Position numbers and translations under genes: made by a program
Part shown: positions 13,134 through 16,677 of the stretch, piece after piece
Layout of the letters: each line of letters begins with the position of its first letter
How positions within the stretch are numbered: position 1 is the first letter of the stretch
The notes under the pieces: generated by a model
Database searches by the model: none
What the model was told of the DNA's origin: nothing
The model's input: the letters and a program-made list of their open reading frames with translations, nothing else
DNA from: Actinomycetes bacterium
GTDB lineage: Bacteria; Actinomycetota; Acidimicrobiia; Acidimicrobiales; JAJYPT01
Assembly (NCBI GenBank): GCA_021795135.1
Contig: JAJYPT010000003.1
Span: 1 to 32,054, forward strand
Direction of reading: 5' to 3'
DNA: 32,054 nucleotides

Positions 13134-14078
13134 TTATTGTGGGTAAAAAGTGTTTTTGAGTGCAATATCTCGATCAGACGTAAAACGTTGAGAGATTTGA
13201 GCTGTGGGTACCATATGGTCAAAACCATGAGGGGCACCACGATACACATGTAGTTCAGTCGAAACATTTGATTGCATAAGTCTATTAGCATAAATTATGT
13301 CTTCATCTACAAATAAATCTAATTCACCAGTCATTATTGTTGCTGGTGCAACTCCTGATAAATCAGTCATTCGGGTAGGAGCTGCATATGGTGATATATT
13401 TTTTGTTCCATAATTAGTTCCTAGGTAACTACGCCAAGCAATTTCATTATTAGTACGATTCCATAATTGAGGCTCGGTAACCATATAGCTAGAAGGTGTG
13501 GAATTAGTATCATCAAGCATGGGAGAGATTAGAATTTGATGAGTAATATTAAATTCTCCTTTATCTCGTATAAGTAAAGCCAAACTAGTTGCAGAACCTC
13601 CTCCTGAACTACGACCACCGACAACTATTCGATTAATATCGATTTGTAATTGTGAGGCATTTTCTATGATCCAAGCTAAGCCAGTATAGCAATCTTGCAG
13701 TGCTGCTGGAAAAGGGTGCTCAGGTGCCCGTCGCCAATCTACAGAAACGACAGCACATTGATGTTTGTTGACGATTTCTTCACAGAATTGGTCATCTAAA
13801 TCTGGAGAGGTGATGACATATCCTCCGCCTTGAATCCAATATAGACAGGGCAAAACATCATTTGTGTTAGAAGAAGGCTTAAAAATCCTAAGCATCACAC
13901 TAGGTTTGTTGTCTTTGCTTGGTGTCCAATAATCTGAATGGCTAATTGATAGATTTGATTTTGGAACATGACCGTAGGCTCTTGCTGCTCGAACAGCCTC
14001 AATATTTGTTAAATCCAAAACAGGCAATTTTGAGACCACTGGCATAAACTCGGGATCCAGGCGGTTTAAAATTGGCAT
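13134..14078 (-). CDS. Alpha/beta hydrolase, HSL/family IV esterase-lipase
   Basis: IQGGGY oxyanion motif, VDWRRAPEHPFPAALQD, GRSSGG nucleophile, GELD acid, HGF histidine. Confidence 0.92.
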   Translation of the reverse strand: MPILNRLDPEFMPVVSKLPVLDLTNIEAVRAARAYGHVPKSNLSISHSDYWTPSKDNKPSVMLRIFKPSSNTNDVLPCLYWIQGGGYVITSPDLDDQFCEEIVNKHQCAVVSVDWRRAPEHPFPAALQDCYTGLAWIIENASQLQIDINRIVVGGRSSGGGSATSLALLIRDKGEFNITHQILISPMLDDTNSTPSSYMVTEPQLWNRTNNEIAWRSYLGTNYGTKNISPYAAPTRMTDLSGVAPATIMTGELDLFVDEDIIYANRLMQSNVSTELHVYRGAPHGFDHMVPTAQISQRFTSDRDIALKNTFYPQ

Positions 14079-14091
14079 TTTAGTTATTTAG

Positions 14092-14129
14092 TAATTCATT
14101 GGAGTACTCGATAGTGTTCCAATGAATTA
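14092..14129. repeat. Inverted repeat/hairpin between sufC copy 2 and esterase (terminator or operator)
   Basis: TAATTCATTGGA (14092-14103) / TCCAATGAATTA (14118-14129), extendable to 17 bp with G-U pairs on the + strand, loop CGAT. Contains direct-repeat copy 2. Confidence 0.75.
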
Positions 14130-14174
14130 GAAAGTAGTTAAAAATGCCACGCAGAAAGCCGTATAACATTTGTT

Positions 14175-14927
14175 TTAATTTCTCTCACGCCAAGCTTCAT
14201 ATCCTTGCTCTTCGAGTTGTTTAGCTAGTTCTGGTCCACCTTGTTCCACTATCTTTCCATTTACTAAGATATGAACATAATCAGGAGTTATCTCATCTAA
14301 TATTCTTTGATAATGGGTAATTAGTAGAACTCCTAATTCGGGACGGCTCTTTCTAACTTCTTTTACTCCTCGAGCTACCACTCTAAGGGCATCTATATCG
14401 AGCCCAGAATCTGTTTCATCTAATATAGCTATCTCTGGCTCCAATATAGCCATTTGGAGAACTTCATTACGTTTTTTTTCTCCTCCTGAGAAGCCTTCAT
14501 TTAAATGTCGGGTGGCAAAAGAAGGATCCATACCCAAGCGGTCCATCCATTCCATTATTGTAAGTCTAAGTTCAAGTATGGAAAGTTCCATGCCTTTTCT
14601 AGCTGAAAGAGCCTGACGTAAGAATTGGATAACTGGTACGCCAGAAATTTCTTCTGGATATTGAAAAGCTAAAAATATACCAGCTTTACCTCTTATATCT
14701 GGGGTCCAAGAAGTTATGTCTTCACCTTGAAAAATAATTTTTCCTGAAGTGACTTCATAATCAGGACTACCTAATAAAGTATTGGCTAATGTAGATTTTC
14801 CTGAGCCGTTAGGACCCATTAGGGCATGTATCTCCCCATCATTTACTAATAGGTTAACGCCTTTTAGGATTTCAGTTCCTTCTACGTTGACATGAAGATC
14901 TTGGATTTCAAAAAGAGGTGTAGTCAC
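14175..14927 (-). CDS. sufC: Fe-S cluster assembly ATPase SufC (copy 2)
   Basis: GPNGSGKST, FLAFQYPEEISGV, canonical LNEGFSGGEKKRNE, LDETDSGLDIDAL, ITHYQRIL. GTG start. Confidence 0.94.
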   Translation of the reverse strand: MTTPLFEIQDLHVNVEGTEILKGVNLLVNDGEIHALMGPNGSGKSTLANTLLGSPDYEVTSGKIIFQGEDITSWTPDIRGKAGIFLAFQYPEEISGVPVIQFLRQALSARKGMELSILELRLTIMEWMDRLGMDPSFATRHLNEGFSGGEKKRNEVLQMAILEPEIAILDETDSGLDIDALRVVARGVKEVRKSRPELGVLLITHYQRILDEITPDYVHILVNGKIVEQGGPELAKQLEEQGYEAWRERN

Positions 14928-14978
14928 AGTTCCAGTTTATATCTATAGAAAGTTTATGAGAATATTACTATTAAAAGG

Positions 14979-15590
14979 TTACCATCCCCTTTGAATCCAT
15001 TCATCTAAATGAGGCCGTTCATTTCCAATAGTTGTAGCTTTCCCATGTCCAGGAAGAACTACTGTATTGTCTGCAAATAGAGCAAAAACTTTATTTTTTA
15101 GAGAATCCATGATTTGTTTGAAATCTCCTCCAGGGAAATGAGTGGCGCCGGGGCCTCCTGGGAAAAGAGTATCTCCACTAAACAAAACAGAAGAGCCAGG
15201 TATTGAATAACAGGTAGATCCTGGAGTATGTCCTGGAGTATGTATAGCTTTTAATATTAAGTTTCCAAAGGGCAGTTCTTGTCCATCTTCGATACAAAAA
15301 TCGTATTCTTCTAACATTGAACTATCTTTAGTTCCTATACCTACTTTGACCCCAGCTTTTCTAAGCTGAGCTATTGCACGTACATGATCCCAATGGCCAT
15401 GGGTGTGAACTGCTGTAGTAGACTTCAATTTTTTAGACAATTTTAGTAAAAGTTCAGGATTGTCTGCTGCATCTATAATTATGGAGTTAGAAGTTTTTTT
15501 ACAAACTGGAAAATAAACATTGTTATCTAAATTTCCCACTGAAACTTGATAAATAATACTTTGTTCGTCTTCGTAAGCAATATCGGTCAT
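14979..15590 (-). CDS. MBL-fold metallo-hydrolase (glyoxalase II-like)
   Basis: THGHWDH, HTPGHT, SGDTLF, PGHG. AAGGAGG SD at 15594-15600. Confidence 0.93.
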   Translation of the reverse strand: MTDIAYEDEQSIIYQVSVGNLDNNVYFPVCKKTSNSIIIDAADNPELLLKLSKKLKSTTAVHTHGHWDHVRAIAQLRKAGVKVGIGTKDSSMLEEYDFCIEDGQELPFGNLILKAIHTPGHTPGSTCYSIPGSSVLFSGDTLFPGGPGATHFPGGDFKQIMDSLKNKVFALFADNTVVLPGHGKATTIGNERPHLDEWIQRGW

Positions 15591-15602
15591 TTTCCTCCTT
15601 AG

Positions 15603-15644
15603 AAATAATAGAAAAAATTTCTTTGGATGATTTTTCTATTATTT
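15603..15644. repeat. Perfect 14-bp inverted repeat upstream of MBL hydrolase
   Basis: AAATAATAGAAAAA (15603-15616), 14-nt spacer, TTTTTCTATTATTT (15631-15644). Confidence 0.75.
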
Positions 15645-15689
15645 GTAGATGCGATATGTTTAAATTACCAGAGAAAGGAGGTGGTCCAA

Positions 15690-15734
15690 CTGATAGGTAA
15701 ACGTTTTGGGACTCTGGAGGTGTCTGACCGTTAG
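15690..15734 (+). CDS. Candidate 14-aa small ORF (M)IGKRFGTLEVSDR
   Basis: CTG codon 8 nt after GGAGG, TAG at 15732-15734. Non-canonical start; translation unproven. Confidence 0.35.
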   Translation: MIGKRFGTLEVSDR

Positions 15735-15841
15735 GCAGCACTGAGGACTTCCTGACAATCCAAGTCAGGCACCGAATTCACAACGTGTCAAGTCTAGTCC
15801 CACTTGATAAACAAACTTGTGAATTTCTTTTCCCAGTAGTT

Positions 15842-15878
15842 TTGCACAAGGATAGCTAGCTATCCTTGTGCAATTTTT
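15842..15878 (+). terminator. Intrinsic terminator formed by a perfect 32-bp palindrome
   Basis: TTGCACAAGGATAGCT|AGCTATCCTTGTGCAA (15842-15873) followed by TTTTT. U-tract present only on the + strand. Confidence 0.85.
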
Positions 15879-15927
15879 ATGTCTAATCTAGGGCTGAACT
15901 ATTTTTAAATACTAGACTTTGTGCTAA

Positions 15928-16677
15928 ATGCAAACACAGATAAAAAGTAACGATTATCTTCTTCCAGGATGTATATTTTTCCCTCCTAAAAATGCAAGTA
16001 TGCCTTTGGTTCATGTTTTGATTCTTTGTCATGATTTTCCTGTTTTCAAAGAAGAGACCAATCTTTTTTCAAAGACCTATTGTGAACTTGCAGACAGAAT
16101 TTCTCAAGAAGTTGGCTGGACGGTACTTTATTTTAATTTCTCAGGAATTGGAGATGCTCCAGGTTCATTTTCTCTATCTCAATGGCTAAATGATTTGAAA
16201 TCAGCTGTAGATTTTGTATATGAGATGGATAAAATCAACGGGGTTTGGCTAGCAGGCTTTGGTGTGGGTGGCGGACTAGCTCTATGTGCAGCAGCTGAAG
16301 ATGCTCGTATCAAAGGAGTAGCTTCTTTTGGTGCCTGGTCAGATTTCAATGAATGGTCTAATCCAGAGCTGATTGTGGATTTAGCCAAACGAGTTGGAGC
16401 AATAAAACCAAAGCATCAAGTGGATTTAGATAAATGGCGCAATGAGTTTAAATCAATAAAGCCAATTGCTGGAATTGGAAAAGTCCCTCCTCGTTCTTTA
16501 TTGATTGTACATGGATCTGAAGACGAAGTAGCCCCAGCTGTAGAAGCTAGAGCCTTATCTAACGCTGCTGAAGAACAAGTAGAACTTAGAGTTATACCAG
16601 GTGCCAAACACCGTATAAGAGACGATCCTCGAGCTATTGCTATTCTTTTGGGGTGGCTGGACCGTCAATTCGTTTAG
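15928..16677 (+). CDS. Alpha/beta hydrolase-fold protein lacking the nucleophilic Ser
   Basis: FNFSGIGDAPG, LAGFGVGG at the elbow, VHGSEDEV, GAKH. Confidence 0.85.
   Translation: MQTQIKSNDYLLPGCIFFPPKNASMPLVHVLILCHDFPVFKEETNLFSKTYCELADRISQEVGWTVLYFNFSGIGDAPGSFSLSQWLNDLKSAVDFVYEMDKINGVWLAGFGVGGGLALCAAAEDARIKGVASFGAWSDFNEWSNPELIVDLAKRVGAIKPKHQVDLDKWRNEFKSIKPIAGIGKVPPRSLLIVHGSEDEVAPAVEARALSNAAEEQVELRVIPGAKHRIRDDPRAIAILLGWLDRQFV

What the first reader, a model, noticed from the sequence alone, without database searches (positions are those of the whole stretch)
15667..15878. Unrecognised ~210-nt structured RNA opening with a 19-nt match to the 16S rRNA 3' end (a 'super Shine-Dalgarno')
Seen: AGAAAGGAGGTGGTCCAAC (15672-15690), then three hairpin elements whose G-U pairs all work on the + strand, then a strong terminator. 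No ORF-track gene lies downstream of this SD. CCAGAG (15668-15673) can also pair with CTCTGG (15712-15717). Established: the 16S 3' end is ...G(U/C)UGGAUCACCUCCUUUCU, so this tract can pair over about 17-19 nt with one G-U, far beyond a normal 4-9 nt SD and reaching the base of helix 45. Inference: a stand-alone small transcript that binds 30S subunits unusually tightly, for example a ribosome sponge or hibernation RNA, a 16S 3'-maturation factor, or a dual-function sORF RNA. It matches no RNA family I recognise.
Basis: partly seen in the sequence, partly recalled or inferred. Interest (0 to 1): 0.88.

Follow-up and report, generated by a model that had tools for sequence, protein, structure and literature searches.

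The report
Known actinobacterial sRNA hiding a mini-ORF
This small RNA belongs to an already catalogued but uncharacterised family of actinobacterial RNAs, and its ribosome-matching opening appears to be an unusually long ribosome-binding site that loads ribosomes onto a conserved, overlooked 14-codon reading frame buried in the RNA's own folds.

Summary
Window 15672-15688 can pair with all 17 nt of the free 16S rRNA 3' tail (one G-U). It is the only such site in the 1.93-Mb genome; the next best run is 13. "Unrecognised" is wrong: 15667-15832(+) matches Rfam RF02471, Ms_IGR-5, an actinobacterial sRNA of unknown function (45.6 bits, cut-off 45). "No ORF" is also wrong. In 63 of 63 homologues the tract is followed 5-12 nt later by an in-frame start or near-cognate start. 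The frame has 12-15 sense codons and no internal stop. A stop codon sits at one fixed position (TAG 41, TGA 12, TAA 10). In the window this is CTG 15690 to TAG 15734. Tract substitutions follow 16S-pairing rules. Helix P1 covaries strongly. The peptide is not conserved: two lineages keep the ORF in a shifted frame. Best reading: a stand-alone mini-mRNA or dual-function RNA in which an extreme Shine-Dalgarno drives translation through conserved helices. Published Ribo-seq reports ribosome footprints on mycobacterial homologues. Its downstream function is unknown. It is a new member of a known family whose features I did not find in print.

The parts
15655..15660 (+). Candidate -10 promoter hexamer (TATGTT). 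It predicts a transcript start near A15667.
   Evidence: Among the 63 homologues, 29 carry a TANNNT hexamer starting 14-15 nt before position p-8, where p is the first G of GGAGG. Others carry NNNNAT/NANNNT variants at the same place. The Rfam model starts at 15667. The start site is inferred and not mapped.
15667..15832 (+). Match to Rfam RF02471 (Ms_IGR-5, Actinobacteria sRNA), covering the full model 1-184.
   Evidence: 45.6 bits against a gathering score of 45, E 2.2e-07. The alignment is shown. It is the only match in the assembly.
15668..15671 (+). P1 5' strand (CCAG, extendable to CCAGAG 15668-15673).
   Evidence: It pairs with 15714-15717. Three of the 4 pairs show compensatory changes in 63 sequences, and 96.8% of cells are paired.
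15672..15688 (+). 17-nt complement to the whole free 3' tail of 16S rRNA (extreme Shine-Dalgarno; core GGAGG at 15677-15681).
   Evidence: The predicted duplex with the tail is -29.4 kcal/mol.
15683..15687 (+). P2 5' strand (GGTCC), which overlaps the 3' part of the tract.
   Evidence: It pairs with GGGAC(T) at 15708-15713. The helix is 81.5% paired in 63 sequences and almost invariant.
15690..15734 (+). Conserved sORF: CTG start at 15690-15692, 8 nt after GGAGG, then 14 sense codons (LIGKRFGTLEVSDR) and stop TAG at 15732-15734.
   Evidence: Translation is inferred from comparative data and from published Ribo-seq on mycobacterial homologues. It was not shown for this organism.
15708..15717 (+). 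Descending strands of P2 (GGGAC 15708-15712) and P1 (CTGG 15714-15717). They lie inside the sORF.
15716..15722 (+). Second SD-like motif (GGAGGTG) inside the sORF. GAGGTG is invariant or nearly so across the family.
   Evidence: One search lists the invariant columns. The stop codon always begins 15 nt after the G of GAGGTG (63 of 63). That leaves 8 nt between GGAGG and the last sense codon, which is my own inference from the coordinates.
15719..15773 (+). P3 domain. Outer stem GGTGTCTGAC (15719-15728) pairs with GTCAGGCACC (15764-15773). Inner stem GTTAGG (15730-15735) pairs with CCTGAC (15751-15756). The apical loop is 15736-15750. The conserved AATCC internal loop is 15757-15761.
   Evidence: Present in the MFE fold and in the RNAalifold consensus of 24 order-level sequences. 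The outer stem is 92% paired and the inner stem 84%, each with 5 pairs showing double changes.
15774..15826 (+). P4 long hairpin. Outer stem 15774-15783 pairs with 15817-15826. Inner stem 15787-15793 pairs with 15802-15808. The loop carries the conserved GTCC (15797-15800).
   Evidence: All 6 inner-stem pairs show double changes.
15834..15837 (+). 3' tail motif (CAGT, within CCCAGT). It can pair with the P3 apical loop ACTG (15740-15743) to form a candidate pseudoknot.
   Evidence: In the order-level alignment loop GCUGGA pairs with tail UCCAGC: 86% of cells are paired and 3 of 6 pairs show double changes. The window row is offset by one column in that alignment, so its own pairing was read by eye.
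15842..15878 (+). Intrinsic terminator: 14-bp stem, 4-nt loop and T-run.
   Evidence: By eye, most of the 24 order-level homologues have a GC-rich hairpin at the same place.

Best explanation
The element is a member of the Ms_IGR-5 sRNA family (Rfam RF02471). It is a stand-alone transcript of about 205-210 nt, starting near 15667 and ending at the terminator 15842-15878.

Its first ~22 nt present a 17-nt tract that pairs with the whole single-stranded 3' tail of 16S rRNA. This tract acts as an extreme Shine-Dalgarno. It places the 30S P site 8 nt downstream on a near-cognate CUG in the loop of hairpin P2. Translation then runs through a 14-codon frame (15690-15734).

The 3' half of that frame forms the descending strands of P2 and P1 and the ascending strands of P3. 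A translating ribosome must therefore unzip three conserved helices. It ends at a positionally fixed stop inside P3, 8 nt beyond a second SD-like motif.

Selection acts on ribosome loading and on the translated span, not on the peptide. The transcript is a mini-mRNA or dual-function RNA whose fold is coupled to its own translation.

Shown: family membership; tract complementarity and its conservation pattern; conservation of the ORF boundaries; covariation of P1, P3 and P4.

Inferred: the transcript start; actual translation in this organism; the CUG start; the role of the second SD; and whatever the remodelled 3' domain does.
For: Family membership:
- RF02471 matches at 45.6 bits against a cut-off of 45.
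- The same family is found in 23 of 41 order-level genomes and 44 of 151 phylum-level genomes. It is found in 0 of 14 control genomes.

The tract:
- It is unique in the genome.
- 53 of 63 homologues keep all 17 contiguous pairs, 8 keep 16, 1 keeps 15 and 1 keeps 9.
- The 64 variant cells all lie at wobble-tolerant positions, and 54 of the 64 still pair.
- The mean duplex energy with the tail is -29.1 kcal/mol.

The sORF in 63 Rfam-derived loci (59 distinct sequences):
- 0 of 63 have an in-frame stop. In the other two frames 42 and 49 of 63 do.
- 63 of 63 have a stop exactly 15 nt after the G of GAGGTG (TAG 41, TGA 12, TAA 10).
- 63 of 63 have an in-frame NTG/ATN codon 4-14 nt after GGAGG. The other frames have 16 and 7.
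- The SD-to-GAGGTG distance varies from 36 to 44 nt across all three residues mod 3, and the start codon moves to stay in frame.
- Near-cognate starts number 31 of 63, with 27 at a spacer of exactly 8 nt. Canonical starts number 32 of 63, and 31 of these lie at spacers 9-12.

Independent set from a pattern scan of named genomes:
- 77 of 117 evaluated loci pass RNA-only criteria. Of these, 75 have the stop at the fixed site.
- The other 2 (L135, L194) keep a 13-codon ORF shifted by one base, which gives a different peptide.

Structure:
- P1 covaries and P2 is invariant.
- P3 and P4 covary.

Literature:
- MS_IGR-5 homologues show 'significant ribosomal reads' in M. abscessus and M. smegmatis Ribo-seq (passage read, PMC4974804).
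- The RNA is expressed as an sRNA transcription unit in Streptomyces (passages read, PMC8079986 and PMC8780764).
- In S. aureus, conserved non-canonical start codons go with extended SD motifs (section 10 of PMC13009471 read).
- An SD lets mycobacteria use TTG and ATT starts (passage read, PMC4633059).
Against: - There are no expression or ribosome data for this organism; no RNA run holding the stretch was listed.
- The Rfam score is barely above the cut-off.
- CUG is a weak initiator in the bacteria studied so far (recalled). About half of the family uses such codons, so the output could be tight 30S binding with little translation.
- In thermodynamic ensembles that ignore pseudoknots, the GGAGG core is predicted mostly paired. 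Mean unpaired probability is 0.26 over 63 sequences and 0.28 in the window.
- The variable codons show no coding signature. GC at the third position is 0.31 while the flanking DNA is 0.69 GC. This argues against a selected peptide. Translation then rests only on the start, stop and frame conservation.
- Some alternative-frame stops come from conserved motifs, so the frame comparison is not made of independent events.
- The homologues are kin, so the counts overstate independent support.
- The founding paper of the family could not be read. Supplements that list Ribo-seq ORFs were closed.
Confidence: 0.68

Rival explanations
1. The RNA is a non-translated 30S-binding decoy. It acts as a ribosome sponge, a hibernation RNA or a guard of the 16S tail. 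The tract clamps the 16S tail, the weak start codon prevents productive initiation, and the RNA works by occupying 30S subunits or shielding their 3' tail.
For: - The tract can form 17 contiguous pairs at about -29 kcal/mol, conserved across the phylum.
- 31 of 63 members have only near-cognate start codons.
- Ribosome footprints on mycobacterial homologues do not separate binding from translation.
- A mycobacterial MazF toxin cuts the single-stranded 16S tail at CACCU (abstract read, PMC12274833). A duplex with the tract would mask that site; this last step is inference.
Against: - The start, the open frame and a positionally fixed stop (TAG/TGA/TAA) are conserved in 63 of 63 loci and 75 of 77 loci. 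The frame is restored in the 2 exceptions. A decoy needs none of these.
- 32 of 63 members use ATG, GTG or TTG.
- There is one gene copy per genome in nearly all cases, so titrating ribosomes would need very high expression.
Confidence: 0.14
2. The element is a cis-acting leader-peptide attenuator of the downstream alpha/beta-hydrolase gene (15928-16677). Translation of the sORF would decide whether the terminator at 15842-15873 forms.
For: - A homologous alpha/beta hydrolase lies downstream on the same strand in 16 of the 50 loci clustered. All 16 are among the 23 order-level loci.
- The order sORF, structured region, terminator, gene resembles ribosome-mediated attenuators.
Against: - Synteny is lost outside the order. 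In the mycobacterium-like locus L024 the downstream gene is convergent (THAP4/nitrobindin-like). In the Streptomyces-like L030 the neighbours are a PAS protein and a 2OG oxygenase.
- S. avermitilis transcript-end mapping classed the RNA as an sRNA unit, not a cis-regulatory one.
- I saw no antiterminator alternative to the terminator stem.
- The sORF has no run of regulatory codons.
Confidence: 0.08
3. It is a micropeptide gene. The 12-15-aa product itself is the effector, and the RNA structure only tunes its synthesis.
For: - The ORF boundaries are conserved.
- A recurring ...T-x-E-V-x-x-x C-terminus is seen.
- Some clades share N-termini such as (L/M)HKP.
Against: - The conserved residues coincide with helix strands. 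The codon before GAG is the covarying P1 strand and encodes L, S, C, R or P.
- L135 and L194 read the same nucleotides in another frame and end in a different peptide.
- The variable codons have GC3 of 0.31 in genomes of 0.69 GC.
Confidence: 0.06
4. It is a chance match or a decayed rRNA-gene fragment on the minus strand.
For: The minus strand reads like the last 19 nt of a 16S gene with two changes.
Against: - No further rRNA similarity exists; Rfam finds only RF02471, on the + strand.
- The tract sits at a fixed place in a covarying structure in more than 130 genomes.
Confidence: 0.01

Closest known systems
Ms_IGR-5 (Rfam RF02471), an actinobacterial sRNA first reported in Mycolicibacterium smegmatis (the link to ncMSMEG15794c is given in PMC10454040)
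   Same: Full-length match to the covariance model. The 5' motif, P3, the GAAUCC loop and P4 with a GUCC loop are the same. The host belongs to the same phylum, judging from its relatives.
   Different: The score is borderline (45.6 against 45). The host has low G+C, so the helices are AU/GU-rich. The P3 apical region and the extra terminator differ from the mycobacterial type. In the texts I could search the family is described only as an sRNA. I found no mention of the full-tail complement or the conserved sORF. The founding paper and all supplements were not readable.
Extended-SD initiation sites with conserved non-canonical start codons (infC AUA, cvfC1 AUU and ccpN AUA in Staphylococcus aureus; PMC13009471, section 10 read)
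   Same: A strong, extended SD-antiSD pairing at a proper spacing directs the ribosome to a near-cognate start codon that is itself conserved.
   Different: Those sites head ordinary protein genes. Here the frame has 12-15 codons, the peptide is not conserved, the pairing covers the whole 17-nt tail, and the frame lies inside conserved helices of a stand-alone RNA.
Dual-function or attenuator-derived sRNAs that carry a short ORF, for example rnTrpL/peTrpL of Sinorhizobium meliloti (titles and abstracts seen in the listing). SgrS/SgrT and RNAIII/hld are recalled examples.
   Same: A small, terminated transcript that is both structured and translated.
   Different: No base-pairing target or peptide function is known here. 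There is no conserved downstream operon. The selected feature appears to be the act of translation.
tmRNA (recalled)
   Same: A highly structured, pseudoknotted small RNA with a short internal reading frame engaged by ribosomes.
   Different: tmRNA has no SD and enters stalled ribosomes through a tRNA-like domain. This RNA uses an extreme SD and ordinary initiation. No Rfam similarity was found.

Membership tests
Rfam RF02471 Ms_IGR-5 | Covariance-model score at or above the curated gathering score (45 bits) over the full model | tested here: met
   45.6 bits, model positions 1-184 of 184, E 2.2e-07. This is borderline. Same-order homologues score 25-60 bits.
Rfam RF02471 Ms_IGR-5 | Conserved 5' motif (purine run, GGAGGUGGUCC, then GGAC, then GAGGUG) and 3' elements (GAAUCC loop, CACC strand, P4 with a GUCC loop) | tested here: met
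   Alignment to the family consensus and alignments A1 and A2.
Rfam RF02471 Ms_IGR-5 | Helices kept by compensatory change | tested here: met
   P1 has 3 of 4 pairs with double changes. P3 outer has 5 of 9, P3 inner 5 of 7 and P4 inner 6 of 6. Rfam's own first helix (model positions 14-19 with 55-60) is mismatched at two pairs in the window. P1 and P2 as defined here replace it better.
Rfam RF02471 Ms_IGR-5 | Expressed as a discrete small transcript | not testable with these tools
   No RNA run holding the stretch was listed. Expression is reported for Streptomyces and mycobacterial members only.
Dual-function (coding plus structured) small RNA | The short ORF is really translated | tested here: inconclusive
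   Comparative signature in 63 of 63 loci and 75 of 77 loci (plus 2 frame-shifted), and published ribosome footprints on homologues. No direct data exist for this locus.
Dual-function (coding plus structured) small RNA | A second, RNA-level activity (a base-pairing target or a protein partner) | not tested
   No target search was made. The conserved loops (GAAUCC, GUCC, UCCAGC) are candidates only.
Ribosome-mediated transcription attenuator (leader peptide) | The same regulated gene lies downstream throughout the family | tested here: not met
   An alpha/beta hydrolase lies downstream in 16 order-level loci only. Other classes have different or convergent neighbours.
Ribosome-mediated transcription attenuator (leader peptide) | Mutually exclusive terminator and antiterminator pairings governed by ribosome position | not tested
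   I saw none by eye. No systematic search was done.
Protein-coding small gene under amino-acid selection | Conserved peptide and a codon-position signature | tested here: not met
   The peptide varies and is frame-shifted in L135 and L194. GC by codon position is 0.36, 0.44 and 0.31 against 0.69 in flanking DNA.

The most novel reading that the evidence does not exclude
Ms_IGR-5 may be a phylum-wide 'ribosome gauge'.
- Its 5' tract pairs with the entire 16S tail.
- In half of the lineages a near-cognate start sits exactly 8 nt downstream. Initiation would then depend on the supply of free 30S subunits and on initiation-factor proofreading.
- A second SD-like motif sits 8 nt before the last sense codon and could hold the terminating ribosome.
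- In 26 of 63 members an internal copy-like mimic of the 16S tail can mask the tract.

Ribosome occupancy would toggle the pseudoknotted 3' domain. That would report translational capacity to an unknown partner, or shield the 16S tail from tail-cutting nucleases.
Probability: 0.2. Interest if true: 0.8.

Novelty: new member of a known kind. Interest (0 to 1): 0.6.

Why it matters
Ms_IGR-5 is found across Actinomycetota: in mycobacteria, streptomycetes, Micromonospora, Acidimicrobiia and Thermoleophilia. In the texts I could search it is listed only as an sRNA of unknown function.

This work gives the family a concrete, testable anatomy:
- an SD that uses the whole 16S tail;
- a positionally fixed mini-ORF threaded through covarying helices;
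- frequent near-cognate starts;
- lineage-specific 16S-tail mimics.

It also shows two blind spots. ORF tracks with canonical starts and a 20-aa floor miss such frames. The Rfam threshold misses the Thermoleophilia members: 8 of 15 signature-bearing loci fell below the gathering score.

Tried and rejected
Expression: one search for public runs holding window 15400-16100 gave 'no RNA holder listed'.

Own 16S tail: it is not in this assembly. The tail sequence was taken from 5 relatives instead.

Other ORFs over the region:
- The minus-strand 72-aa ORF (15523-15741) and the 35-aa ATG-extended frame (15627-15734) have no Pfam match at E 0.001 or better. The second begins upstream of the predicted transcript start. 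Both were rejected.
- The in-frame GTG inside the tract (15681) was rejected as a start. It lies within the SD and is in frame only when the SD-to-GAGGTG distance is 1 mod 3.

The mir-70 hit at 15601-15646 (21.1 bits against a cut-off of 90) is chance. It reflects an AT-rich inverted repeat.

Internal anti-SD (16S-tail mimic):
- It is significant in 26 of 63 homologues (at most 5 of 100 shuffles as good).
- It is not significant in the window (-12.8 kcal/mol; 48 of 100 shuffles as good).
- It is therefore not claimed for this locus.

Kissing interaction between the P3 loop GGACC and the P4 loop GGUCC: 88% of cells are paired but the columns are almost invariant. It also overlaps the loop-tail pseudoknot. 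This was left open.

Rfam's first helix does not fit the window (two mismatched pairs). P1 and P2 are used instead.

Synteny clustering used stop-to-stop frames of 80 aa or more, and in high-GC DNA it gave many spurious clusters. Only the hydrolase cluster and the Pfam-checked neighbours were used.

Literature:
- Searches for 'Ms_IGR-5', 'RF02471', 'IGR-5 + smegmatis + Hfq', ncRv/ncMSMEG names, 'extended Shine-Dalgarno + Actinobacteria + sRNA + small ORF' and 'sRNA + anti-Shine-Dalgarno + M. smegmatis + small ORF' found no description of the tract or the sORF.
- The founding paper (Li et al. 2013) is not held.
- Supplements are closed. These include the Ribo-seq ORF tables of PMC9094748 and PMC4974804 and Table S4 of PMC10454040. 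They may already list this sORF.

Rows dropped:
- L041 and L051 (unpublished genomes G058 and G088) were excluded from every analysis.
- The hits in G159 and G041 (also unpublished) were not fetched.
- The tally of 44 of 151 includes these four genomes. No other claim rests on them.
- One search covered 48 loci because L033 and L040 failed a first regular expression. They are included in the 63.
- Three of the 120 pattern-scan loci lay at locus edges and were not evaluated.
Full report
WHAT IS THERE

- The tract AGAAAGGAGGTGGTCCAAC lies at 15672-15690.
- CCAGAG (15668-15673) faces CTCTGG (15712-15717).
- Three hairpins follow, then a 14-bp terminator stem (15842-15873) with a T-run.
- The + strand folds to -73.9 kcal/mol, z -4.6, and 0 of 200 shuffles fold as well. 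The - strand is weaker at -68.2 kcal/mol, z -3.7.

IS THE 16S COMPLEMENT REAL AND UNUSUAL?

The window's assembly has 257 contigs and is 88.6% complete. It holds no 16S 3' end.

In 5 of 5 relatives tested, a 17-nt tail pattern occurs at rRNA-operon-like copy numbers of 1 to 6. In two of them it sits at the end of the Rfam SSU match. One 16S gene reads ...GGCTGGATCACCTCCTTTCT.

Against this tail, window 15672-15688 forms 17 contiguous pairs (16 Watson-Crick and one G-U). That covers the whole stretch 3' of the last rRNA helix. The 18th position is an A-C mismatch.

I scanned both strands of the whole 1.93-Mb assembly. This is the only 17-pair site. Lower run lengths were 13 pairs (3 sites), 12 pairs (7), 11 pairs (31) and 10 pairs (135).

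IT IS A KNOWN FAMILY

Rfam's gathering-threshold scan of the window gives one hit: RF02471, Ms_IGR-5, 'Actinobacteria sRNA'. It covers 15667-15832 on the + strand at 45.6 bits (cut-off 45), E 2.2e-07, over the full model. The family consensus itself begins with the purine run and GGAGGUGGUCC.

How widely the family is found:
- 1 of 1 copy in the own genome.
- 23 of 41 order-level genomes, 8 of them over the cut-off.
- 44 of 151 phylum-level genomes, 20 over the cut-off. This tally includes four unpublished genomes that I otherwise excluded.
- 0 of 14 control genomes.

A pattern scan of named genomes found the motif in Mycobacterium, Pseudonocardia, Blastococcus, Kribbella, Micromonospora, Nocardioides, Acidimicrobiia/Acidimicrobiales, Conexibacter and Solirubrobacterales records, among others. 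Of 15 such loci, 7 reach the Rfam cut-off.

What the literature I could read says:
- It is expressed as an sRNA in Streptomyces lividans and S. avermitilis.
- It is equated with ncMSMEG15794c in M. smegmatis.
- It is among the sRNA homologues 'displaying significant ribosomal reads' in M. abscessus and M. smegmatis Ribo-seq.

I read these papers as passages only. The founding paper was not held.

THE TRACT IS SELECTED TO PAIR WITH THE 16S TAIL

I analysed 63 homologues. These are 50 of the 52 loci L001-L052 (L041 and L051 were dropped as unpublished) plus 13 further hits fetched.
- 53 keep 17 contiguous pairs, 8 keep 16, 1 keeps 15 and 1 keeps 9.
- All 64 variant cells fall at the 9 positions where a transition preserves pairing (A or G opposite U, C or U opposite G).
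- None falls at the 8 positions where a transition would break the pair.
- 54 of the 64 variant cells still pair.
- The position opposite the tail's C is G in 63 of 63, while its purine neighbours opposite U alternate between A and G.
- The predicted duplex energy averages -29.1 kcal/mol.

The 3' part of the tract (GGUCC) is also the 5' strand of hairpin P2. P2 is nearly invariant on both strands, whereas the adjacent P1 covaries freely. That is what an external partner constraining the 5' strand would produce. This last step is inference.

THE OVERLOOKED READING FRAME

Results in the 63 loci (59 distinct sequences):
- The frame that reads GAG GTG has no internal stop in 0 of 63 cases. The other two frames have stops in 42 and 49 of 63.
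- It ends in a stop codon exactly 15 nt after the G of GAGGTG in 63 of 63 (TAG 41, TGA 12, TAA 10).
- It has an in-frame NTG or ATN codon 4-14 nt after GGAGG in 63 of 63. The other frames have 16 and 7.
- In the 48 loci, the SD-to-GAGGTG distance ranges from 36 to 44 nt and takes all three residues mod 3 (30, 12 and 6). The start codon moves to stay in frame.
- Canonical starts (ATG, GTG, TTG) occur in 32 of 63: 31 at spacers of 9-12 nt and 1 at spacer 7.
- Near-cognates (CTG, ATT, ATC, ATA) occur in 31 of 63: 27 at a spacer of exactly 8 nt, 3 at spacer 9 and 1 at spacer 5.
- Frames have 12-15 sense codons.

In the window the frame runs from CTG 15690-15692 through 14 sense codons (LIGKRFGTLEVSDR) to TAG 15732-15734.

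An independent set came from the pattern scan of named genomes. Of 120 loci, 3 lay at edges and 117 were evaluated.
- 77 loci pass RNA-only criteria (at least 16 tract pairs and at least 3 of 4 P1 pairs). Of these, 75 have the stop at the fixed site and 72 have a start in the 4-14-nt window.
- Three of the remaining loci carry ACG at spacer 8.
- Two loci (L135, L194) keep a 13-codon ORF with TTG or GTG starts, but in a frame shifted by one base. The same nucleotides then encode a different C-terminus.
- Of the 40 loci failing the RNA criteria, 9 have the stop at the fixed site and look like members with a shifted P1 register. The other 31 lack it and look like chance matches. They include most non-actinobacterial titles.

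WHAT IS SELECTED IS TRANSLATION, NOT THE PEPTIDE
- The codon before GAG is the covarying 3' strand of P1 and encodes L, S, C, R or P.
- The recurring T-x-E-V residues coincide with P2, P1 and P3 nucleotides.
- The variable codons have GC of 0.36, 0.44 and 0.31 at positions 1, 2 and 3, in genomes whose flanks average 0.69 GC (130 distinct regions). This is the opposite of a coding signature.
- The frame-shifted lineages change the peptide but keep the ORF.

STRUCTURE
- P1 (15668-15671 with 15714-15717): 96.8% of cells are paired. Pairs 2-4 show CG, GC, AU, UA and GU types. No shuffle of 500 reaches the observed covariation score.
- P2 (15683-15687 with 15708-15712) leaves the SD core in an internal loop and the start codon in the apical loop.
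- RNAalifold on 24 order-level sequences recovers P1, P2, a two-tier P3 and P4. P3 outer, P3 inner and P4 inner have 5, 5 and 6 pairs with double changes.
- A loop-to-tail pairing, GCUGGA in the P3 apex with UCCAGC just before the terminator, is 86% paired with 3 of 6 pairs compensated. In the window this is ACTG 15740-15743 with CAGT 15834-15837.
- A loop-loop pairing (GGACC with the P4 loop GGUCC) is 88% paired but nearly invariant. These two candidate pairings overlap and remain tentative.
- The second SD-like motif (15716-15722) forms the junction of P1 and P3. Its GGAGG ends 8 nt before the last sense codon, which mirrors the 8-nt spacing at the start. This is my inference from the coordinates.
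- In 26 of 63 homologues the P3 apex carries a stretch complementary to the tract, which makes it a mimic of the 16S tail. In the window it does not beat shuffles.

CONTEXT
- A -10-like hexamer sits at a fixed distance upstream in many members. It predicts a start at about 15667, only 10 nt before GGAGG.
- Neighbours in the window are a divergent MBL-fold hydrolase (14979-15590) and a downstream alpha/beta hydrolase (15928-16677).
- The hydrolase is downstream in 16 order-level loci. Elsewhere the neighbours differ. L024 has a class IV aminotransferase upstream and a convergent nitrobindin-like gene downstream. L030 has a PAS protein and a 2OG oxygenase.
- This argues for a stand-alone gene rather than a leader.

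MECHANISM PROPOSED

Steps shown:
- family membership;
- the tract-tail complementarity and its wobble-rule conservation;
- conserved ORF boundaries;
- covarying helices.

Steps inferred:
- The 30S subunit binds the tract through its whole tail.
- The P site falls on the CUG in the P2 loop.
- The ribosome translates 14 codons, melting P2, P1 and the 5' strands of P3.
- It terminates at the fixed stop, possibly held by the second SD-like motif.
- The freed 3' strands and loops then act on something unknown.

Two precedents support extended SDs driving conserved near-cognate starts. One is in S. aureus (section 10 of PMC13009471). The other is SD-dependent use of TTG and ATT in mycobacteria (passage of PMC4633059).

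RIVALS
- A non-translated 30S decoy or tail guard keeps some weight because half of the members have weak starts.
- An attenuator of the hydrolase gene fails on synteny.
- A micropeptide gene fails on peptide conservation.
- An rRNA remnant fails on everything.

NOVELTY AND VERDICT

The element is a new, divergent, low-GC member of a known Rfam family. The claim 'unrecognised RNA' is therefore refuted.

My searches of the held literature found no description of the full-tail complement, the conserved mini-ORF, its near-cognate starts or the tail mimics. Supplements and the founding paper were not readable, so priority cannot be excluded.

Caveats:
- The homologues are kin and the counts are not independent events.
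- No expression or ribosome data exist for this organism.

Noticed in passing
L135 and L194 (pattern-scan loci): Two family members keep a 13-codon ORF with TTG or GTG starts, but in a frame shifted by one base relative to the conserved GAGGTG. The stop lies one base earlier and the peptide tail differs. This is a natural frame-shift experiment.
   Followed up: partly
L150 (record titled Syntrophobacter sp. MAG) and L151 (Candidatus Polarisedimenticolia MAG): Two records with non-actinobacterial titles carry the tract, sORF, GAAUCC and CACC motifs, though L150 keeps only 1 of the 4 P1 pairs scored. L151 reaches the Rfam cut-off (51.6 bits). This could be mis-binned contigs or horizontal transfer. 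It was not resolved.
   Followed up: partly
L080, L082, L107, L110, L131 and others: Members from Thermoleophilia/Conexibacter-type records and some Acidimicrobiia records have the full signature but fall below the Rfam gathering score. The curated model under-detects these lineages.
   Followed up: partly
L070, L064, L049, L032, L048 and others: In 26 of 63 homologues the P3 apex holds a stretch that is a near copy of the 16S 3' tail and can pair with the SD tract at up to -30 kcal/mol. This is a possible built-in mask of the ribosome-binding site. It is absent or weak in the window and in the mycobacterium-like loci.
   Followed up: partly
L131, L144, L152 (Solirubrobacterales-titled records): The in-frame codon at the 8-nt spacer is ACG, a second-position near-cognate. 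No NTG or ATN codon lies in the 4-14-nt window.
   Followed up: no
window 15601-15646: An AT-rich inverted repeat lies between the divergent MBL-hydrolase start and the RNA's predicted promoter. It gave a chance mir-70 hit. It could be an operator or a bidirectional-promoter element.
   Followed up: no
G061: One phylum-level genome has two matches to the family, on contigs C126 and C17. All the others have one.
   Followed up: no
window 13134-15590, minus strand: A SufC-like ATPase gene (14175-14927; name given from its sequence by recall, not checked with Pfam) lies between an MBL-fold hydrolase and an Abhydrolase_3 esterase. There are no other suf genes among its immediate neighbours in the ORF list.
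   Followed up: no
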